DNA from: an uncultured Candidatus Kuenenia sp.
GTDB taxonomy: Bacteria > Planctomycetota > Planctomycetia > Pirellulales > UBA1268
Length of the DNA stretch: 52,442 nucleotides
Assembly (NCBI GenBank): GCA_964498325.1
Contig: CAZCHF010000016.1
Span: forward strand, 1-52,442
Direction: 5' to 3'
Below are positions 40,451 to 48,724 of the stretch, one piece after another. Position 1 is the first letter of the stretch. Each line of letters opens with the position of its first letter. The translations under genes and the position numbers were made by a program. The notes beneath the pieces were generated by a model. The model saw only the letters and a program-made list of their open reading frames with translations. It was not told where the DNA came from and did not search any database.

Positions 40451-41389
40451 ATGACACGATTTCTCGAGCATCTTGCCAACGCGTTTCCGGTGTGGGTCGC
40501 GGTCGCGTGCGGGCTCGCGCTCGTCGAGCCCACACTCTTCACCTGGTTCAACCCGTTCATCAGCCAGGGATTGGCCGTGGTCATGCTCGGCATGGGCATG
40601 ACGCTCTCGCCGGCCGATTTTGCCCGGGTGACCTCGCGGCCGGGAGCGGTCCTCGCCGGTTTCGTGGCCCAGTTTTCGATCATGCCGACCGCGGCGTGGG
40701 GGATCGCCACGCTCATGAATCTTCCCACACCGTTCGCCGTCGGCCTGATCTTGGTCGGCTGCTGTCCCGGCGGCACCGCATCGAACGTGGTCACGTACAT
40801 CGCCAAGGCCGATGTCGCGTTGTCGGTCACCATGACGACCTGCTCCACGCTCGCGGCGGTGATCTTCACGCCGCTGCTGACGAGTCTCTTGGCCGGTCAC
40901 CTTGTCGAAGTGGATTCGCTGAAGCTCTTTCTTGACACCCTTCAGGTGGTCGTGGCACCGGTGGCAATCGGCATCGCTCTCAATCAGTGGGCCCCCGCGA
41001 TCGTCACGCGGGTGACACCGGTGGCTCCGCTCGTGAGTGTCCTGGCGGTTGCACTCATCTGTGGGGCCATCATCGGCCAGAATGCTGCAGCCGTTCGAGA
41101 GAGTGGCCTCACGCTCCTCACTGGGATCGTGCTGCTCCATGCGATCGGGTTTGGCGTGGGCTACGCCTTCGCCCGCGTGTTTCGGTTTTCACCGGTCGTG
41201 GCCCGTACGATCTCGATCGAGGTCGGCATGCAGAACTCCGGCCTCGGGGCGGTCCTCGCCAAGAACAACTTTCCGGCGGAGCCGCTCACCGCCGTACCGT
41301 GCGCCATCTCCGCCCTCGTCCACTCCGTCCTCGGCAGCATGCTGGCCGGCCTCTGGCGACTCTGGCCACCCTCGTTCACCCGGCCATGA
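40451..41389 (+). CDS. Bile acid:sodium symporter (BASS/SBF) family transporter
   Basis: ATG at 40451 (MTRFLEHLANAFPVWVAVACG...). The SBF pattern …GLILVGCCPGGTASNVVTYIAKADVALSV… The upstream 227 codons of the listed ORF are low-complexity junk. Confidence 0.8.
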   Translation: MTRFLEHLANAFPVWVAVACGLALVEPTLFTWFNPFISQGLAVVMLGMGMTLSPADFARVTSRPGAVLAGFVAQFSIMPTAAWGIATLMNLPTPFAVGLILVGCCPGGTASNVVTYIAKADVALSVTMTTCSTLAAVIFTPLLTSLLAGHLVEVDSLKLFLDTLQVVVAPVAIGIALNQWAPAIVTRVTPVAPLVSVLAVALICGAIIGQNAAAVRESGLTLLTGIVLLHAIGFGVGYAFARVFRFSPVVARTISIEVGMQNSGLGAVLAKNNFPAEPLTAVPCAISALVHSVLGSMLAGLWRLWPPSFTRP

Positions 41390-42395
41390 TGGCAATGCTG
41401 ACGAGTGCCGTGATGGTCGCGACGAACACCGCACTGAGCACCCAAAAGGCTCGCTGCTGAAATCGCTGGGCGGCCGCCACGTCGTCAAAGTCGAGCCACG
41501 TGGCGGTCGCGAGCACCGTGCCCAAGCCCGCGAGCACATAGGCGTATGCCGCCAGGTGAATTTTGTCCATGAGCACCAAGTAGTCGACGCTCGGCATGGT
41601 TTCGTTGGCCGCCAATTGGATGGCGACCACCGTCAAGAGCGATGTGATGCCCACGCCCAGGCGCGCGTCGACGAACGTCACTTTGAGCCGCAGCATCAAA
41701 GACGCGCCGATCGCGACACAGAGAACGGGCAAGAGCATCTTGAGAGTCGACGTCACCAACGGTCGCTGGATGGGAATTTCGATACGGACTCGCGAGTAGG
41801 CGTTGGGTTCGGTGCGTCGCACGTCGCCAAACGCGGTGGGGTAGTCGAATCGCTCCACCGTGAGCTCGGGTCGCCCGACACGAAAGCCTGGCAAAACCAG
41901 GCGAGGATTCAGCGCCACCGGCTCGTCGTCTGGCTGATAGACGAGACGATTCACCTCATGCACGGCATCTTCCAATTCCACGACCAACGATTGGCGATCG
42001 TAGGGGTAGTTGTTGAAGAAGAATTTGTGGCTGAACCGACCTTGGATGCGGAGCACCTGATACCGCTCACCCGTGGGGAGCTCGATGGTCTCGGCGTACT
42101 GCGGCTCCTTGACATGCCCCCAGAGTTCGTTCGGATTGACGATCTCCACGGTCTCGGACGGCATCAGATCGGGATCGCGCCATCGGAACCAGATGTAGAT
42201 GTCCATCGCATAGCTGTGCTCCCGCAAGTTGAGCGATTGCACATCGTTGACATAGGCACCCACGACGACGGTCGCCGGGCCGGCTCGATCGGCGTCTTGC
42301 CCGTGGGCCGCGGCCAGCGTGAGGAGCCGCCCACCGCAGAGCAGGCACGGCACAACCCAGCAAAGAAAGGATGGGCCGGTCAACGACGCGTTCAT
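41376..42395 (-). CDS. Prokaryotic pentameric ligand-gated ion channel (Cys-loop receptor superfamily homolog, GLIC/ELIC-like, without Cys-loop disulfide)
   Basis: Signal peptide at the ATG at 42395. Extracellular-domain motifs (…SYAMDIYIWFRWRDPDL…, …YPYDRQSLVVELE…), followed by four TM helices M1-M4. Confidence 0.8.
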   Translation of the reverse strand: MNASLTGPSFLCWVVPCLLCGGRLLTLAAAHGQDADRAGPATVVVGAYVNDVQSLNLREHSYAMDIYIWFRWRDPDLMPSETVEIVNPNELWGHVKEPQYAETIELPTGERYQVLRIQGRFSHKFFFNNYPYDRQSLVVELEDAVHEVNRLVYQPDDEPVALNPRLVLPGFRVGRPELTVERFDYPTAFGDVRRTEPNAYSRVRIEIPIQRPLVTSTLKMLLPVLCVAIGASLMLRLKVTFVDARLGVGITSLLTVVAIQLAANETMPSVDYLVLMDKIHLAAYAYVLAGLGTVLATATWLDFDDVAAAQRFQQRAFWVLSAVFVATITALVSIAIMAG

Positions 42396-42527
42396 GACGA
42401 TGAGTTGGGTGACGGTTCGCCGTTGATCATAACCGGCCGTGCATGACCGACGCGGGGTCGTTGACGCACCTCGACCTTGCGAACTTCGGAAAACCGGAAT
42501 CTTGACGGCCTGCCTGCACTCAGATAG

Positions 42528-42541
42528 TGTACGCACGTACA
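42528..42541. promoter_or_regulatory. Palindrome TGTACgcacGTACA (GTAC-N4-GTAC), candidate LexA/SOS operator overlapping the -10 region upstream of imuA
   Basis: Seen in sequence. TTGACG at 42502-42507, 17-bp spacer, then TAGTGT at 42525-42530 overlapping the palindrome. 36 nt upstream of the imuA ATG. Confidence 0.4.
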
Positions 42542-42576
42542 TTCATGCACACTGGGCGGCGGTGAGGTCCAAGGCC

Positions 42577-43575
42577 ATGGTGACCATTTTCTCGCAGGGC
42601 AACTGGCTGACTGGCGGCGAGCTTCAGGGACAGGAAGACGCTCGCGAAGCGATTCCAACGGGATTCAAGGGGGTCGATGCCCTGCTGCCTGCCGGCGGGC
42701 TGCGACGCGGCAGCCTCGTCGAATGGCTTGCCGGCAGCGATGCACAAACTGGCGATGTGGCCAGCGGCACCGGGGCCGTGTCATTGGCTTTGGCCATTGC
42801 ATGCCGGCTCGCCAAGCCAGGTTCTCGCACGGCCTCCAACGGCCGTTCCGGTGGCCATGCTGGCCGGAAGACGATTCTCGTCGTCGATCGAGGCGGTTGG
42901 TTTCATCCGCCGGCCGTGATGCCCTGGCTCGATGACTCGCGGCAGCTTGTCGTCGCTCGGCCCTCCCATGACGACGATGAGATCTGGGCGATCGACCAAG
43001 CCCTCAGATGCCGTGGGGTGGCCGCCGTCGTGGCCTGGCCACGTGGCATGAGCCGGGAGTTCGCCGACGTTCGACAAGAGAGCCGCTTCCATGGCACGCG
43101 GCGACTTTCCGCATGGACAACCGCCATGCGACGCTGGCAACTGGCGGCGCGATCAAGTGGCAGCATCGGCCTCTTCGTGCGGCCGGCTGCGGCGATCCGC
43201 GAGCCATCATGGGCTGAGGCGAGGTTTGCCGTGTCGCCGGCTCCTGGATCGCCTTCGCCTACTCGATCGCCTTCGCTTTCTAGAGCGTCTTCACTTCCTC
43301 GATCGCCTTCGCTTTCTGGATCGCCTTCGCTTCCAAGCGGCACGCTCACGCAAAGGCGGCTCATGATCGAACGGGTGGGAGGCGCCTGGAATGGTGGTCT
43401 CTCGGGGCAAGCGACCGAGATCGTGCTTGATCTGGCACGCGGCTGTGAGAGCCCGACGGTTCAGCGAACTGACATCAGCCTGCCCCTACCACGGCGTCGC
43501 GTAATCGCGAGAAGAAGCGCCGACGGGTCACAGGCTGAACTCACGCGAGGAGGTGTCGCATGCCGCGCGTCATGA
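42577..43575 (+). CDS. imuA: ImuA-like (RecA/SulA-fold) protein of the imuA-imuB-dnaE2 mutagenesis cassette
   Basis: N-terminal IPTGFKGVDALLPAGGLRRGSLVEWL resembles the ImuA/SulA-like ATPase-fold start. Position 5' of imuB-dnaE2. Ser/Pro-rich C-terminal repeats (SPSPTRSPSLSRASSLPRSPSLSGSPSLPSG). Confidence 0.7.
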   Translation: MVTIFSQGNWLTGGELQGQEDAREAIPTGFKGVDALLPAGGLRRGSLVEWLAGSDAQTGDVASGTGAVSLALAIACRLAKPGSRTASNGRSGGHAGRKTILVVDRGGWFHPPAVMPWLDDSRQLVVARPSHDDDEIWAIDQALRCRGVAAVVAWPRGMSREFADVRQESRFHGTRRLSAWTTAMRRWQLAARSSGSIGLFVRPAAAIREPSWAEARFAVSPAPGSPSPTRSPSLSRASSLPRSPSLSGSPSLPSGTLTQRRLMIERVGGAWNGGLSGQATEIVLDLARGCESPTVQRTDISLPLPRRRVIARRSADGSQAELTRGGVACRAS

Positions 43576-45311
43576 CGATCTGGTTGCCGCGATGGCCGGT
43601 GCAGCGGCGGCTCGTCGAGCGGCCCGAACTGCGAAAGCGGCCGGTGTTTGTCTGCCGACGTGAAGCTCGCGGGCTCATGACCGTGGCAGCGTGGGCGTGG
43701 GCTGAGCCGCCGAGACGCGAGCGTGTGGTGATCGAGTCGGGGATGTCGCTCGCCGAGGCCATGGGAGTCTTGGCGCTTGCCTACGGTTCGCAGGCCTGCC
43801 ATGCCACCGAGATCGATGCCGATGATCCCGTTGCCGACAGGACAGCCCTCGAAAAGCTCGCCCGCATGTGCCGGCGGTTTTCGCCGATCGTGGGCATCGA
43901 GACCGGGCCACCGAAACCGGGCCGCGGCATAGCCGGCTGCCAAACCGCAGCGGAGTGCCTTCACCTCGATGTGACCCACACGGCCGGTTTTTTTGGCGGC
44001 GAAGGGGCGCTTGCCCGCACCGCCGTCTGGACACTTGCCGCCCGCGGCCTCCATGCCCGCACGGCCATCGCCGACACGCCGGCCGCCGCCTGGGCTGCGG
44101 CGCACCACACCGATCGCATTGCCAAAGCGATGCCGATGACTGCCGGCGAGGCCCGGCGTTTCGGCACTGCCAGACACAAGCGTTACGCGATCGTGCCACC
44201 GGGCGGGCAACGGCTCTCCCGCGGCGAAGAGGCCCTGCTCGCAGACCTGCCGCTTTCGGCCCTGCGGCTCGAGCCTGCCGCGATCGACATGCTCCATGAA
44301 GTCGGTGTCGACACGATCGGCGGTGTGCTCCGGCTTTCGAGCAAGAGTCTGGCTTCGCGCTTCCCCGAAAGTGTTTCCCTGCGGCTGGCAGAGTTCACCG
44401 GCTCGCGGGCTGAGCCGATCGAACTGCCGCATGCGTCTCATCGTGACCAACTGCCGCAGGCCTCGCATGACTTCGAGCTTCCCCTGTCGCTTGCCTCGGT
44501 TGACGAGGCTGCGATGGCGAACCTCTTCGAATCTCTCATGGAGCAATGCACGCCGGCGCTCGCTGCACGTGGCGAAGGTATCACGGCGCTTCAAGTTCGT
44601 CTCGAGCCGTCCGTGGCAGCCTCCACGACGGCCACTGCCGCGCCGACGGTGATCGACGTCAGCCTGTTTCGGCCGAGTCGCTCACCGCGGCATCTGGTCG
44701 ATCTCGTGCGCCTGCGCATGGGTCGCATGCGACTCCCTCGCGAGATCGAGTCGATCACCATGGAGGTCGTGGCCACCGGGCCGGTCCTGTGCCGACAGCG
44801 GCCACTTTTTGATGCGCGTGTCGACGACCGCCCTGGCACCATCACGGAAGACGAAGCGCTGGAGGTCGGGCTGTTGCTCGACAGGCTCGCTGGCCGACTC
44901 GGTCGACCGGCCGTCTTTGAACCACACGCGGTGGCCGACTCACAACCAGAGCATGCCTGGCTTGCTGCCCCGCCTGCGACGGCGCCGGCAACCAAACGAG
45001 GCGGCAACCATCGCCTCGAGCGGGCTGGCAGACGACCGGTCTGGATGCCGCCGCGGCCGATTCCACTTGAAGACTGTGAAGGGAATCCGGCGCCGGTGCA
45101 ATTTCGGCTTGGTGGTGCCCTCCACCATGTCCTGAAGGCACACGGGCCTGAGCGAATCGAGACGGCCTGGTGGCGCGGGCCCACGGTTCGCCGCGATTAC
45201 TACGTCGTGGAGACGGATTCGGGAGCGAGGTTTTGGCTCTTTCGGCGGCTCGGCAGTCGACCACGAGGCGTCCGCGAGAGCGGCTGGTATCTGCACGGCG
45301 TGTTTGCCTGA
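43560..45311 (+). CDS. imuB: ImuB, Y-family DNA polymerase-like (catalytically inactive type) protein
   Basis: The start MTIWLPRWPVQRRL is typical of ImuB. Y-family palm/fingers-like N-half and a long C-terminal region. Overlaps the imuA stop. Confidence 0.8.
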   Translation: MPRVMTIWLPRWPVQRRLVERPELRKRPVFVCRREARGLMTVAAWAWAEPPRRERVVIESGMSLAEAMGVLALAYGSQACHATEIDADDPVADRTALEKLARMCRRFSPIVGIETGPPKPGRGIAGCQTAAECLHLDVTHTAGFFGGEGALARTAVWTLAARGLHARTAIADTPAAAWAAAHHTDRIAKAMPMTAGEARRFGTARHKRYAIVPPGGQRLSRGEEALLADLPLSALRLEPAAIDMLHEVGVDTIGGVLRLSSKSLASRFPESVSLRLAEFTGSRAEPIELPHASHRDQLPQASHDFELPLSLASVDEAAMANLFESLMEQCTPALAARGEGITALQVRLEPSVAASTTATAAPTVIDVSLFRPSRSPRHLVDLVRLRMGRMRLPREIESITMEVVATGPVLCRQRPLFDARVDDRPGTITEDEALEVGLLLDRLAGRLGRPAVFEPHAVADSQPEHAWLAAPPATAPATKRGGNHRLERAGRRPVWMPPRPIPLEDCEGNPAPVQFRLGGALHHVLKAHGPERIETAWWRGPTVRRDYYVVETDSGARFWLFRRLGSRPRGVRESGWYLHGVFA

Positions 45312-45340
45312 AACACAAAAAAGAAACGGAGACCCAGAGC

Positions 45341-48300
45341 ATGAACCACGCAGTGCCACGGTATGCCGAGCTCCACTGCACGAGCAACTTTTCATTTCTC
45401 CAAGGTGCCTCGCATCCTGAGGAGCTCGTCACGCGAGCGGCCGAATTCGGCTATGAGGCTCTGGCGATCACCGACCTCGCCACCCTCACGGGAATCGTGC
45501 GAGCCCATGGGGCCGCCAAGCAGGCAGGAATCAAGCTCATTGTCGGGGCACAACTCGAACTGGCAGACGCCGCGTCGCTTGTCGTCTGGGCCGCCGATGC
45601 GAAAGGCTACGCCAATCTCTGCCATTTGCTGACACACGGCTACGCCCAGGCTGCCGAGAAACCCGTTGATCACGACCGGCGAGCGCCGCACGATGCGGCG
45701 AGCGCCGACCATGGAAAACCTCGGCTTTTCCATCGGTCGGCCAAGTGGAAAAAGGCCAGGGCTGGCTTTTTCCACGGACAGTCAGATCTCGATCATGATG
45801 ACGACATCCCGACTCACAGTGCCGGCGCATGTTTCCTGACGCGTGACGATGTCGCAAGGCATGCCCAAGGTCTCCTGGCAGGCGTGCCGCTGGCGGCGAT
45901 CGACCACGACCGACCAGGTGGCGATGACCAACTCCGAGAAGCAACGCACAAGCTCAGGCACTGGCACGAGATCTTTGGCGACCGGCTGTGGGCCCTCGCC
46001 GAAGTGGCGCTCGAAGGAGACGATGCCGAACGGCTCGCTTGGTTCGGTCGCGTAGCCCGACAGGCTCGTGTTCCTGTCGCAGCGGCAGGTGATGTGCGCT
46101 ACCACGCGCGCAGCCGGATGCCACTCTTTGATGTGGTGACGGCGGTGCGGCATCGCAGCACGGTCGACACCATCCGAGGCCGGCTGCTTGCCAATGGCGA
46201 GCGGCATCTCCACAAAATCCAGCGGATCGCCAAGCGGTTTGCGGCACTGCCGGGAGCGGTCGAACGGTCGGCCGAAATCGCCGCCCGCTGCACGTTCTCG
46301 CTCGATGAACTGAAATACGAATACCCGCTGGCCACCGTGCCGCCTGGCCGCACCGCTGCCGAGCACCTGGCTGACATGGTCTGGAAGGGTGCTCGCAAGC
46401 GGTATCCCGACGGGATTCCCGAGAAGGTACGGGAGCTTGTCGCTCATGAGCTCGCGATCGTCACCGACCTCGGCTACGAGGCTTATTTTCTCACTGTCTT
46501 CGACATCGTGCGCTTTGCTCGACGACAGAACATCCTCTGCCAGGGGCGCGGGTCGGCGGCCAACTCGGCCATCTGCTACTGCCTGGGCATCACGTCGGTC
46601 GATCCGGCTCGGATGAACGTCCTCTTCGAGCGGTTCGTGAGCCGCGAGCGGCGTGAGGCCCCCGACATCGATGTCGACTTCGAGCATCACCGCCGCGAAG
46701 AAGTACTGCAATATATCTACGAAACGTATGGCCGCGACCGAGCTGCCATGACGGCCGAGGTGATTTCCTATCGGCTGCGATCCGCCGTCCGCGACGTCGG
46801 CAAGGCTCTCGGGCTCTCGCTCGATCGCATTGACTCGCTCGCCACGGTGCTCGACGTGGGCGATCGCATCGATGATCTACCGGCCCGGCTTGGCGAGGCG
46901 GGCCTTGATCCGGCGAGTGATACTGGCCAAAGACTTGTGACGCTCGTCGGCGAGCTGATCGGCTTTCCGCGGCATCTCGGTCAGCATGTCGGGGGCATGG
47001 TGATGACGCGGGGGCGGCTTGTCGATCTCGTGCCCGTGCAGCCGGCCACGATGCCCGGCCGCACGATCGTGCAGTGGGACAAAGACGACCTCGACGAGCT
47101 CGGCATCCTGAAGGTCGATTGCCTCGCCCTCGGCATGCTCACCGCGATCCGCCGAGCTTTTGAGCTTGTGGAGCAATCTGGAGGCCCTCGGCTCACGCTG
47201 GCCACGGTGCCGGCCGAGGATCCGGCTGTCTACGAGATGATCTCGCGGGCCGACACGATCGGTGTCTTTCAGATCGAGAGCCGAGCCCAGATGAGCATGC
47301 TGCCGCGGCTCCGGCCCAAGTGTTTTTATGACCTCGTGATCGAGGTGGCGATCGTGCGGCCAGGCCCGATCCAGGGCAACATGGTGCATCCCTATCTCCG
47401 GCGGCGAAACGGCGAGGAGGCCGTCACCTATCCCAACGATGCAATCCGAGAGGTGCTCGAAAAAACGCTCGGCGTACCGCTCTTCCAGGAGCAGGCCATG
47501 CGGCTGGCAGTGGTCGCGGCGGGCTTCACGCCAGGCGAAGCCGATCAACTGCGACGGGCGATGGGAGCCTGGCGACGGCCAGGCGTGATCGACGAGTTTC
47601 ACCGAAAACTTGTCGACGGCATGCTCGCCCGCGGGCTTTCCAAGGAATTTGCCGAGCATGTTTTCAACCAGATTCGCGGGTTTGGTGAATACGGATTTCC
47701 AGAGTCGCACGCGGCGAGCTTTGCACTCCTGGTGTATGTGTCGGCCTGGCTGAAGCATCACCACCCGGCAGCTTTTACCGCCGCGCTTCTCGCCAGCCAG
47801 CCCATGGGTTTTTATGCACCAGCCCAACTCGTCCGCGATGCCCGCAATCACGGCGTGAAGGTGCTTCCAGCCGACGTGAATGCAAGCGCATGGCACGCCA
47901 CGCTCGAGCGAAGCGAGAAGCCAAACGCCCAACCGTCGCTGCGACTCGGACTCGAGCAGGTCTACGGGCTGGGCGAAGCGGAAGCCGAGCGCATCGTGGC
48001 TGCTAGACGAGACGGTTCTTTCAAACTGCCACGCGATCTGGTCCGACGAGCAAAGCTCGATCGCGAGGCGCTTTTGCATTTGGCCCGTGCAGGAGCCCTT
48101 GCATCGCTCGGGCTCTCGCGTCGCCGTGCCGTCTGGGAAGCGATGCAGTGTCTCGACAAACCGGCGAGCCGGCCGCTCCTGGAAAGCCTCTCGGATCATG
48201 ACGACACCGACGAGGATGGCGATGCGGGCGGTCTGCCTGCCATGACGCGGCAGGAAGAGGTCGTTGCCGACTACCGCACCGGCGGACTTTCACTCACGGC

Positions 48301-48724
48301 GCATCCGCTCGTTTTTGAGCGACCGCGACTGGCGGCGAGCGGCGTCGCCTGTATCGCCACGGCCAACGCCGCGTCCGAAGGCCGTCGCGTCCGAATCGCC
48401 GGCATCGTGCTCGTTCGCCAGCGCCCCGCGACGGCCAAGGGCATGATTTTTCTCACGATCGAAGACGAGACGGGCTCGGCCAACATCGTGGTTCGCCCTG
48501 ACATATGGAAGGCCGCCGATCACGCCGCCCGGCGTACCGCAGTGCTCATGGTCGAGGGCCGCATCCAGCGTCGTGGCGAAGTCGTGCATGTGGTCGCCAC
48601 CCGGCTCGCGACCATGCTCGGGTCGACAGATCAATGCAAGCATGACGATGCCTCACCAACCATCCCCTCGCTCCCCTCCCCTGCCCTTGCAGCCCTCCCA
48701 CGTATGTCCCGCGATTTCTGCTGA
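45341..48724 (+). CDS. dnaE2: Error-prone DNA polymerase III alpha-subunit paralog DnaE2 (ImuC)
   Basis: ATG at 45341. N-terminal PHP domain (LHCTSNFSFLQGASHPEELV). Polymerase core (…GILKVDCLALGMLTAI…IGVFQIESRAQMSM…). OB-fold C-terminus. About 1127 aa, shorter than DnaE1. Confidence 0.9.
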   Translation: MNHAVPRYAELHCTSNFSFLQGASHPEELVTRAAEFGYEALAITDLATLTGIVRAHGAAKQAGIKLIVGAQLELADAASLVVWAADAKGYANLCHLLTHGYAQAAEKPVDHDRRAPHDAASADHGKPRLFHRSAKWKKARAGFFHGQSDLDHDDDIPTHSAGACFLTRDDVARHAQGLLAGVPLAAIDHDRPGGDDQLREATHKLRHWHEIFGDRLWALAEVALEGDDAERLAWFGRVARQARVPVAAAGDVRYHARSRMPLFDVVTAVRHRSTVDTIRGRLLANGERHLHKIQRIAKRFAALPGAVERSAEIAARCTFSLDELKYEYPLATVPPGRTAAEHLADMVWKGARKRYPDGIPEKVRELVAHELAIVTDLGYEAYFLTVFDIVRFARRQNILCQGRGSAANSAICYCLGITSVDPARMNVLFERFVSRERREAPDIDVDFEHHRREEVLQYIYETYGRDRAAMTAEVISYRLRSAVRDVGKALGLSLDRIDSLATVLDVGDRIDDLPARLGEAGLDPASDTGQRLVTLVGELIGFPRHLGQHVGGMVMTRGRLVDLVPVQPATMPGRTIVQWDKDDLDELGILKVDCLALGMLTAIRRAFELVEQSGGPRLTLATVPAEDPAVYEMISRADTIGVFQIESRAQMSMLPRLRPKCFYDLVIEVAIVRPGPIQGNMVHPYLRRRNGEEAVTYPNDAIREVLEKTLGVPLFQEQAMRLAVVAAGFTPGEADQLRRAMGAWRRPGVIDEFHRKLVDGMLARGLSKEFAEHVFNQIRGFGEYGFPESHAASFALLVYVSAWLKHHHPAAFTAALLASQPMGFYAPAQLVRDARNHGVKVLPADVNASAWHATLERSEKPNAQPSLRLGLEQVYGLGEAEAERIVAARRDGSFKLPRDLVRRAKLDREALLHLARAGALASLGLSRRRAVWEAMQCLDKPASRPLLESLSDHDDTDEDGDAGGLPAMTRQEEVVADYRTGGLSLTAHPLVFERPRLAASGVACIATANAASEGRRVRIAGIVLVRQRPATAKGMIFLTIEDETGSANIVVRPDIWKAADHAARRTAVLMVEGRIQRRGEVVHVVATRLATMLGSTDQCKHDDASPTIPSLPSPALAALPRMSRDFC

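What the first reader, a model, noticed from the sequence alone, without database searches (positions are those of the whole stretch)
42502..48724. imuA-imuB-dnaE2 mutagenesis cassette with a GTAC-N4-GTAC palindrome over its promoter
A complete SOS-type error-prone polymerase cassette is present, with overlapping or closely spaced genes. The palindrome TGTACgcacGTACA overlaps a TTGACG-17-TAGTGT promoter-like sequence 36 nt upstream of imuA. That is the expected position for a LexA operator. The half-sites resemble GTAC-type LexA boxes (cyanobacterial RGTAC-N3-DGTWCB-like), not the E. coli CTGT-N8-ACAG type. The window contains no lexA gene. The ImuA C-terminus also carries an unusual Ser/Pro-rich repeat (SPSPTRSPSLSRASSLPRSPSLSGSPSLPSG).
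Basis: partly seen in the sequence, partly recalled or inferred. Interest (0 to 1): 0.55.

Follow-up and report, generated by a model that had tools for sequence, protein, structure and literature searches.

The report
Planctomycete SOS operator on mutagenesis operon
A planctomycete carries the well-known error-prone DNA repair operon imuA-imuB-dnaE2, and the small DNA palindrome on its promoter is a conserved repressor site, shared with recA promoters in related bacteria, that probably defines the undescribed DNA-damage (SOS) box of this phylum.

Summary
TGTACGCACGTACA (42528-42541) is unique in the window. It overlaps the -10 of a TTGACG-17-TAGTGT promoter, 35 nt upstream of imuA (42577-43575). 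imuA is followed by imuB (43560-45311) and dnaE2 (45341-48724).

Comparative data make chance untenable. In 80 related planctomycete imuA loci, all 77 with enough upstream DNA carry TGTAC-N4-GT(A/T)CA: 36 perfect, 33 with one mismatch, 8 with two. In 71 of 76 the -35 and -10 sit in the same register. Flanking DNA is not conserved.

A matrix built only from the imuA sites finds the same palindrome, in the same promoter register, on recA promoters of 4 of 9 unselected Planctomycetaceae lineages, plus one lineage found by pattern search. It finds almost nothing else in about 1.1 Mb. A regulon of imuABC plus recA indicates an SOS-type repressor.

The core matches cyanobacterial LexA boxes (AGTAC-N4-GTACT). 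It lies between the Firmicutes (GAAC-N4-GTTC) and Verrucomicrobia (TGTTC-N4-GAACA) boxes.

Not shown: I could not retrieve any planctomycete lexA, so LexA as the binding protein, its autoregulation and damage induction are inferred.

The cassette itself is ordinary. I found no description of a planctomycete SOS box in the searchable literature. The Ser/Pro repeat is an 18-bp tandem-repeat insertion in a variable internal linker of ImuA.

The parts
42502..42507 (+). -35 hexamer TTGACG of the imuA promoter
   Evidence: TTGAC(A/G) occupies the same position (-26..-21 relative to the palindrome start) in related loci. Column counts are T76, T73, G73, A72, C73 of 77.
42525..42530 (+). -10 hexamer TAGTGT (TAnTGT). 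Its last three bases are the first three of the palindrome.
   Evidence: 17-nt spacer from the -35. Columns T74, A76, n, T76, G68, T76 of 77. 71 of 76 loci have the -35 and TAnnnT in this register.
42528..42541 (.). 14-bp palindromic operator TGTAC-GCAC-GTACA, the putative planctomycete SOS (LexA-type) box
   Evidence: Unique in the window. Present upstream of imuA in 77 of 77 related loci with more than 158 nt of upstream DNA (36 perfect, 33 with one mismatch, 8 with two). The same motif sits on recA promoters of Planctomycetaceae.
42577..43575 (+). imuA (332 aa), a RecA-fold accessory protein of the mutasome
   Evidence: NF033429 ImuA_translesion E=1.9e-17, below cutoff. 685 homologs, several named ImuA. 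Conserved MVT start and invariant CRAS end. 29% identical to annotated Burkholderia ImuA.
43247..43332 (+). 18-bp x 4.8 in-frame tandem repeat encoding the Ser/Pro-rich insertion (ImuA residues about 225-255)
   Evidence: TRF score 116, 80% matches. It lies in a linker that is short in most homologs and variable in the closest ones.
43560..45311 (+). imuB (583 aa), an inactive Y-family polymerase homolog with a C-terminal extension. Its start overlaps the imuA stop by 16 nt.
   Evidence: Full-length tblastn matches to Y-family genes flanked by imuA and dnaE2 on plasmids, E to 1e-20. Weak IMS and DinB hits.
45341..48724 (+). dnaE2 (imuC; 1127 aa), the error-prone Pol III alpha homolog
   Evidence: NF004225 1399.6 bits (cutoff 939). 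PHP, DNA_pol3_alpha, finger, HHH_6 and OB domains. The start MNHAVPRYAELHCTSNFSF is preceded by GGAG, 29 nt after the imuB stop.

Best explanation
The region is a three-gene operon, imuA-imuB-dnaE2, encoding the translesion 'mutasome'. It is transcribed from a sigma-70-type promoter, TTGACG-17-TAGTGT.

A dimeric repressor binds the 14-bp palindrome TGTAC-N4-GTACA. The palindrome runs from the 3' half of the -10 hexamer to about +9, so a bound repressor blocks RNA polymerase binding or open-complex formation. The repressor is most likely the planctomycete LexA.

After DNA damage, RecA filaments would trigger LexA self-cleavage. The promoter is freed and the three tightly coupled genes are expressed together (16-nt overlap between imuA and imuB, 29-nt gap between imuB and dnaE2).

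Shown here: the genes, the promoter, the operator, its conservation, and its recurrence on recA promoters.

Inferred: the identity of the binding protein, its cleavage, and damage induction.
For: (1) Conservation. 77 of 77 related imuA loci with enough upstream DNA carry the palindrome. Information content peaks only at the -35, the -10 and the two arms. The 4-nt spacer and the flanks vary.

(2) Dyad symmetry with arm variants: GTTCA, GTATA paired with TATAC, and one TGAAC-N4-GTTCA. This is typical of a dimeric helix-turn-helix site.

(3) Specificity. In 920 kb around these loci no other exact copy exists. Only two unrelated matrix hits reach 14 or more.

(4) A second, non-homologous SOS gene. 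A matrix built only from imuA sites gives its top hit of each 20-kb locus on the recA promoter in L270 (19.9), L271 (16.4), L272 (16.7) and L276 (14.9), and in pattern-selected L206 (16.6). Each follows TTGAAx-17-TAnnnT in the same register, within 1 nt. About 0.003 such hits are expected in nine 150-nt windows, from the background rate.

(5) recA promoters that lost the palindrome keep their -35 and -10 (Rubinisphaera, Polystyrenella). The palindrome is therefore an added operator and is not needed for promoter function.

(6) The core equals cyanobacterial LexA boxes AGTAC-N4-GTACT (PMC3091678; PMC2248561). It is one base per half-site from the Firmicutes GAAC-N4-GTTC box and the Verrucomicrobia TGTTC-N4-GAACA box (PMC4951493).

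(7) The imuA-imuB-dnaE2 cassette is described as LexA-regulated in many bacteria (PMC6511836, PMC4951493).

(8) Planctomycetes (R. baltica) are reported to have a LexA that does not use the E. coli motif (PMC3108266).

(9) The predicted transcription start lies inside the right arm. The leader is unstructured (z=+2.1) and matches no Rfam family, so an RNA-level element is unlikely.
Against: No planctomycete lexA gene or promoter was examined. LexA presence in this genome, its autoregulation and the protein-DNA match are therefore untested.

recA carries the site in only 4 of 9 unselected lineages. All of those are Planctomycetaceae-type lineages, not demonstrably the window's own (Pirellulales-labelled) clade.

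The operator sits in one fixed register relative to the -10 in both gene families. That is more rigid than in well-studied LexA regulons.

There are no expression or binding data.
Confidence: 0.8

Rival explanations
1. The palindrome is a real operator of a DNA-damage regulon, but the repressor is not a canonical LexA. It could be a LexA-like S24 protein with a different DNA-binding domain (as in Bacteroidetes), a DdrO/XRE-type repressor with a partner protease, or another family.
For: lexA was never observed here. Non-canonical SOS repressors exist in other phyla (PMC8565304). The rigid operator/-10 register is unusual for LexA regulons.
Against: The half-site, spacing and length match the GAAC/GTAC-N4 family of canonical LexA boxes (PMC3091678, PMC4951493). 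Planctomycetes are reported to encode LexA (PMC3108266). A phage-like element places a perfect copy next to a gene for a LexA-type DNA-binding domain (weak evidence).
Confidence: 0.13
2. The palindrome is not a protein-binding operator. It would be a conserved piece of promoter or initial-transcribed sequence, for example part of an unusual -10/discriminator, or a product of GTAC-related restriction-modification pressure, inherited with the orthologous imuA promoter.
For: It is fused to the -10 in a fixed register. Most of the evidence comes from orthologous promoters that share ancestry.
Against: It recurs on non-homologous recA promoters with different -35, spacer and flanks. recA promoters keep their -35 and -10 when the palindrome decays. 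Both arms are conserved symmetrically while the 4-nt centre varies. Paired arm variants such as TATAC...GTATA occur.
Confidence: 0.05
3. Chance palindrome with no function.
For: A single 14-bp site in one window could be chance: 3-7% of shuffles give at least one match.
Against: 77 of 77 related loci carry it at the same place.
Confidence: 0.01

Closest known systems
Cyanobacterial LexA box (RGTAC-N3-DGTWCB, i.e. AGTAC-N4-GTACT; Mazon et al. 2004, cited in PMC3091678)
   Same: 14 bp, dyad-symmetric, with the identical GTAC-N4-GT(A/T)C core. It lies upstream of recA, lexA and other SOS genes. The GTTC variant arm is tolerated in both.
   Different: The flanking bases are swapped (T...A here, A...T in cyanobacteria). 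The phylum differs. The regulon seen here is imuABC plus recA. Here the site is locked to the -10 hexamer.
Firmicutes/Actinobacteria Cheo box CGAAC-N4-GTTCG
   Same: Same architecture of 5-bp arms with a 4-bp centre. One related locus (L071) actually reads TGAAC-N4-GTTCA, and 20 of 77 sites have a GTTCA right arm.
   Different: The consensus half-site is TGTAC, not CGAAC.
Verrucomicrobia LexA motif TGTTC-N4-GAACA (PMC4951493), in the sister phylum of the PVC superphylum
   Same: 14-bp palindrome with T/A outer bases and an N4 centre. It controls imuA-imuB-dnaE2 and, in V. spinosum, recA. One recA site here (L272) has a TGTTC arm.
   Different: The half-site differs at one position (TGTAC vs TGTTC), which changes the inner dyad. 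The Verrucomicrobia motif was proven by EMSA; this one is only computational.
E. coli-type SOS box CTGT-N8-ACAG
   Same: CTGTAC-N4-GTACAG satisfies both patterns. My metagenome scan mostly recovered proteobacterial recA boxes of that kind.
   Different: Here the outer C and G are not conserved (G at the right flank in 3 of 77 sites). The inner A-C/G-T, which are variable in E. coli boxes, are near-invariant (A 77, C 77, G 73, T 74 of 77).
LexA-regulated imuA-imuB-dnaE2 cassette of Proteobacteria, Actinobacteria and Verrucomicrobia (PMC6511836, PMC10421592)
   Same: Same three genes in the same order and tightly coupled. ImuB lacks the catalytic acidic pair. DnaE2 is of the error-prone subfamily.
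   Different: The ImuA family is divergent: below the NCBIfam cutoff, with an invariant CRAS C-terminus and a lineage-specific Ser/Pro repeat. No lexA is adjacent.

Membership tests
imuA-imuB-dnaE2 mutagenesis cassette | DnaE2-type (error-prone) Pol III alpha homolog | tested here: met
   NF004225 scores 1399.6 bits against a cutoff of 939, with all expected Pfam domains.
imuA-imuB-dnaE2 mutagenesis cassette | ImuB: Y-family homolog, catalytically inactive, with a C-terminal extension | tested here: met
   Full-length similarity to Y-family genes located between imuA and dnaE2. 583 aa is longer than DinB. The D-E catalytic pair is replaced by E-C in a pairwise alignment (alignment at low identity, DinB sequence from memory). 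Pfam IMS is only E=0.044.
imuA-imuB-dnaE2 mutagenesis cassette | ImuA: RecA-related accessory protein encoded first in the operon | tested here: met
   NF033429 E=1.9e-17, but 63.8 bits is below the 150-bit cutoff. tblastn to annotated ImuA. Homologs are named ImuA. No PDB relative.
imuA-imuB-dnaE2 mutagenesis cassette | Co-directional, tightly spaced genes behind one promoter | tested here: met
   16-nt overlap and 29-nt gap. A single conserved promoter lies upstream of imuA.
LexA operator (SOS box) | Dyad-symmetric 14-16 bp motif overlapping the promoter of the regulated gene | tested here: met
   TGTAC-N4-GTACA overlaps the -10 through about +9.
LexA operator (SOS box) | The same motif upstream of several core SOS genes (lexA, recA, imuA and others) across genomes of the clade | tested here: inconclusive
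   imuA: 77 of 77 loci. recA: 4 of 9 unselected lineages plus L206.
LexA operator (SOS box) | A lexA gene (wHTH plus S24 peptidase) in the same genome | not tested
   None in the window or in any fetched locus. The literature states that R. baltica has a LexA (PMC3108266).
LexA operator (SOS box) | Specific binding by LexA, and derepression after DNA damage through RecA-stimulated cleavage | not testable with these tools
   Needs EMSA or footprinting and expression assays.
E. coli-type SOS box (CTGT-N8-ACAG) | Conserved outer CTG...CAG | tested here: not met
   The right-flank G is present in 3 of 77 sites. The left C (44 of 77) is explained by the -10 hexamer TAcTGT.

The most novel reading that the evidence does not exclude
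Planctomycetes run a minimal, unusually hard-wired damage regulon. The operator is fused in one register to the -10 hexamer of each target promoter: imuABC always, recA in some lineages, possibly a conserved secreted protein encoded divergently from imuA. It is read by a repressor that is not a canonical LexA, or by a LexA with a binding mode that requires this register. Phage-like elements carrying stand-alone LexA DNA-binding domains next to a perfect copy of the site would then tap into or mimic this control.
Probability: 0.12. Interest if true: 0.6.

Novelty: new member of a known kind. Interest (0 to 1): 0.4.

Why it matters
The SOS response has been mapped phylum by phylum through its LexA box. 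For the PVC superphylum, only Verrucomicrobia have been documented (PMC4951493, 2016). I found no paper in the searchable library that describes a planctomycete box.

A candidate box, TGTAC-N4-GT(A/T)CA, supported by 77 imuA promoters and several recA promoters, gives a matrix ready for regulon prediction in Planctomycetia. It also adds a data point on how LexA motifs drift. It sits one base per half-site from both the Gram-positive GAAC and the Verrucomicrobia TGTTC half-sites, and shares its core with cyanobacteria.

The cassette itself and its SOS control are textbook, so the gain is incremental.

Tried and rejected
(1) Finding lexA:
- tblastn with E. coli and B. subtilis LexA against the window and all 290+ fetched loci found nothing.
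It returned only 3 short relatives.
- Supplements of PMC4951493 hold no planctomycete sequences.
- The 2006 cassette paper (PMC1326238) is not held.

Degenerate IUPAC letters do not count as specified bases.

(3) The metagenome scan joined the operator to recA 'FGKGxxM' codons. Of 64 hits, nearly all were proteobacterial CTGTAC-N4-GTACAG boxes, that is, E. coli-type boxes. Only L206 was planctomycete.

(4) Promoter-plus-operator patterns in viral contigs gave 8 low-GC chance hits.

(5) The PLSDB plasmid collection holds no planctomycete imuA. The search was useful only to confirm ImuA and ImuB identity.

(6) PDB sequence searches for ImuA and ImuB found nothing.

(7) Look-up of the window's own ImuA by exact sequence: not on record.

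(8) RNA explanations: no Rfam hit, and the leader is less structured than shuffles.

(9) The generic promoter scan misses the promoter. I rejected that as evidence against it because conservation defines the hexamers.

(10) Bacteroidetes non-canonical LexA motifs (GGA-N5-TCC, CTAA-N5-TTAG) are unrelated.
Full report
**1. What is in the window**

The window is 61-67% G+C chromosomal DNA. Homologs of its ImuA are named by NCBI as Planctomycetota, Pirellulales or Planctomycetaceae proteins.

Three co-directional genes fill the finding.
- imuA runs 42577-43575 (332 aa). Its start is fixed by the conserved MVT N-terminus, and its end is an invariant CRAS.
- imuB runs 43560-45311 (583 aa).
- dnaE2 most likely runs 45341-48724. 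The start MNHAVPRYAELHCTSNF is preceded by GGAG.

imuB begins 16 nt before the imuA stop, behind GAGGAGG. dnaE2 begins 29 nt after the imuB stop.

DnaE2 is unambiguous: NF004225 'error-prone DNA polymerase' at 1399.6 bits against a 939-bit cutoff, plus the PHP, alpha, finger, HhH and OB domains.

ImuA matches NCBIfam ImuA_translesion only below its cutoff (63.8 vs 150 bits) and has no Pfam or PDB match. It does hit annotated ImuA genes on Burkholderia plasmids (29% identity). It also has 685 relatives in the protein collection, several labelled ImuA.

ImuB has only marginal IMS and DinB hits. It aligns over its full length (27-29% identity, E to 1e-20) with 'DNA polymerase Y family protein' genes that sit between imuA ('damage-inducible protein') and 'error-prone DNA polymerase' on alphaproteobacterial plasmids. 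In a pairwise alignment its 'ECLHLDVT' lies opposite DinB 'DEAYLDVT'. The catalytic Asp-Glu pair is therefore missing, as expected for the 'catalytically dead' ImuB (PMC6511836).

Neighbouring genes are housekeeping: purC, aroC, a Band-7 protein, a VWA protein, futalosine-pathway genes and a sodium/bile-acid symporter-family (SBF) transporter. None is a regulator.

**2. The palindrome and promoter**

TGTACGCACGTACA occupies 42528-42541 and is unique in the window. TTGACG (42502-42507) and TAGTGT (42525-42530) are 17 nt apart. The -10 shares its last three bases with the left arm. The tool's generic promoter scan does not report this promoter, because TAGTGT matches TATAAT at only three positions.

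**3. Comparative test**

An alignment of 40 ImuA homologs retrieved 80 loci from species-representative genomes. All were planctomycete MAGs, at 34-65% protein identity.

Within 400 nt upstream of imuA:
- 36 loci have a perfect TGTAC-N4-GTACA;
- 33 have one mismatch, mostly a GTTCA right arm;
- 8 have two mismatches, mostly TATAC...GTATA;
- the 3 loci without a site have at most 158 nt of upstream DNA.

Aligned on the palindrome, information content is high at only three places: TTGAC(A/G) at -26..-21, T-A-n-T-G-T at -3..+2, and the two arms. The 17-nt spacer, the 4-nt centre and everything else are near background. 71 of 76 loci keep both hexamers in this register. The palindrome ends 15-68 nt before the imuA start in most loci.

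No other exact copy occurs in 920 kb of flanking DNA. With a matrix built from the sites, only two unrelated positions score 14 or more.

**4. Is it an SOS box?**

Neither lexA nor recA lies in the window or in the 80 loci.

I spent the single metagenome scan on the perfect palindrome followed, 90-150 nt later, by the codons for the conserved RecA peptide FGKGxxM. Most of the 64 hits were proteobacterial recA genes with CTGTAC-N4-GTACAG, which are ordinary E. coli-type boxes.

One hit, L206, carries TTGAAA-17-TATTGTACCTGCGTACA, the same promoter/operator architecture as imuA. Its RecA is 97% identical to an NCBI 'Planctomycetaceae bacterium' RecA, 82% to Rubinisphaera brasiliensis and 76% to Polystyrenella longa.

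I then fetched recA loci for nine further RecA proteins from that search. I scanned each roughly 20-kb locus with the imuA-derived matrix. In four of the nine, the best hit of the whole locus lies on the recA promoter:
- L270: TTGAAA-17-TATTATACGCGTGTATA (score 19.9)
- L271: TTGAAT-17-TATAAACGGATGTTCA (16.4)
- L272/L273: TTGATT-17-TATTGTTCTTAAGTACA (16.7)
- L276: TTGAAA-17-TAATGTACTGTAGTTCA (14.9)

In each, the palindrome starts at the 3rd or 4th base of the -10. Nothing else in these loci reaches 14.

Two lineages keep the -35 and -10 but only remnants of the palindrome: P. longa has ATTAC-GCCT-GTACA, and R. brasiliensis has a decayed right arm. Three lineages show nothing.

From the background (about 2 hits of 14 or more per 920 kb), about 0.003 hits are expected in nine 150-nt windows. 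The motif therefore marks at least two unrelated DNA-damage genes, which is the signature of an SOS-type regulon. Promoters that lost the palindrome remain promoters, so it behaves as an added repressor site.

**5. Mechanism**

The palindrome spans the downstream half of the -10 to about +9. A dimer bound there would exclude RNA polymerase or block open-complex formation. The predicted transcription start falls inside the right arm, so the left arm is not transcribed. The leader is unstructured (z=+2.1) and matches no Rfam family. This argues against an RNA-level element.

The most economical reading is LexA repression relieved by RecA-stimulated self-cleavage, followed by coupled translation of the three genes. 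The binding protein, the cleavage and the induction are inferred.

**6. Comparison with known systems**

Cyanobacterial LexA boxes are AGTAC-N4-GTACT/GTTCT (site table in PMC3091678; PMC2248561). The core is identical to the one here, and only the outer base pair is swapped. Firmicutes and Actinobacteria use CGAAC-N4-GTTCG. [quoted passage not shown]

The arm variants seen here touch both neighbouring motifs: TGAAC-type right arms in 20 of 77 imuA sites, one full TGAAC-N4-GTTCA, and a TGTTC arm at one recA.

The site is not E. coli-type, because the outer G is present in only 3 of 77 sites. It is unrelated to the Bacteroidetes non-canonical LexA motifs.

PMC4951493 states that the SOS response had not been documented in the PVC superphylum. 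PMC3108266 states that planctomycete LexA (R. baltica) does not use the E. coli motif. Five literature searches found no description of a planctomycete box. The 2006 cassette survey and the 2007 'Aeons of distress' review are not in the held library, so prior mention there cannot be excluded.

**7. What remains open**

I could not obtain any planctomycete lexA. All three protein searches are used (ImuA, RecA, and a phage LexA-DNA-binding-domain protein as a last attempt to reach host lexA), and all twelve contig look-ups are used. LexA identity, autoregulation and presence in this genome are therefore untested.

The recA evidence comes from Planctomycetaceae-type lineages. The window's closest relatives are labelled Pirellulales. 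The imuA data bridge both labels, since L040 is labelled Planctomicrobium.

**8. The Ser/Pro repeat**

It is an in-frame 18-bp x 4.8 tandem repeat at 43247-43332, encoding residues 225-255. It lies in a linker that is 'PLPG-G-TLLERRL' in most homologs and carries shorter, different insertions in the closest relatives. It looks like slippage-driven expansion in a tolerant loop. It is not C-terminal, and nothing links it to function.

**9. Verdict**

The cassette and its damage control are ordinary. The added value is a well-supported candidate SOS box for Planctomycetia, with its protein partner still inferred.

Noticed in passing
L020:3142-4404(-), L030:8729-9961(-), L048:8773-9978(-), L025, L016, L060, L080 and about 25 more loci; L023:4520 and L023:5435-6622(+): In about 30 of the 80 imuA loci a conserved gene of roughly 380-400 aa lies divergently right beside the imuA operator/promoter. 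It has strong coding GC3, a signal-peptide-like N-terminus, and the motifs WRQIEPA, LGHGLPTEIQSY, CDDCFSxDF and GEKFVPHFW. It has no Pfam hit. In L023 the homolog is not next to imuA. There, the only strong extra motif copy in 920 kb (TATACGCCTGTTCA, score 18.1) lies about 400 nt upstream of the two-gene unit that contains it. It may be a second regulon member. The window itself has a different upstream gene.
   Followed up: partly
L197:716-1121; L294-L299 and L288-L293: A phage-like element (GC 62-63%; AAA_5, DUF2201, resolvase) encodes a 96-101 aa protein that is only a LexA-type DNA-binding domain (PF01726). About 100 nt after its stop is TTGACG-N6-TGTACGCACGTACA-ct (score 24.1), with a -10-like TACACT overlapping the right arm. 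In a 58%-identical relative the left arm is degenerate (TGAAA/TGAAT; scores 16.2-19.3). The host is unknown. This is a weak hint that LexA-type domains read this palindrome.
   Followed up: partly
L201-L264 (metagenome loci): Many proteobacterial recA promoters carry CTGTAC-N4-GTACAG. That sequence satisfies both TGTAC-N4-GTACA and the E. coli-type CTGT-N8-ACAG. Pattern searches for the planctomycete box will therefore pick up E. coli-type boxes unless the flanking C/G is excluded.
   Followed up: yes
L265-L268 (Rubinisphaera brasiliensis recA) and L269 (Polystyrenella longa CP036281 recA): The recA promoters keep TTGAxx-17-TAnnnT but only remnants of the palindrome (ATTAC-CCAC-AACGA; ATTAC-GCCT-GTACA, the latter about 275 nt upstream of recA). 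This suggests lineage-specific loss or weakening of recA control.
   Followed up: partly
L077:9611-9653: Two motif copies 15 nt apart upstream of imuA: GGTACTTCTGTACA and TGTACGCACGTTCA, about 390 and 361 nt before the matched part of imuA. This recalls the tandem LexA sites in Verrucomicrobia lexA promoters (PMC4951493).
   Followed up: no
window 43564-43575 (ImuA C-terminus) and the alignment: All 40 aligned planctomycete ImuA proteins end in C-R-A-S; C, A and S are invariant and R is present in 39 of 40. All start with M, and almost all with MVT. The function of the C-terminal tetrapeptide is unknown.
   Followed up: no
window 44796-44810 (ImuB residues 413-417): ImuB contains QRPLF after the Y-family core. 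By my own reading of the sequence this fits the beta-clamp-binding consensus QxxLF. It was not tested.
   Followed up: no
window 41376-42542(-): The gene upstream of imuA and divergent from it resembles pentameric ligand-gated ion channels (NCBIfam LGIC_1 E=4e-12, TIGR00860 E=1e-11, both far below cutoff). The listed ORF start at 42542 falls inside the palindrome and is probably spurious. An ATG near 42395 followed by a signal-peptide-like segment is more plausible.
   Followed up: no
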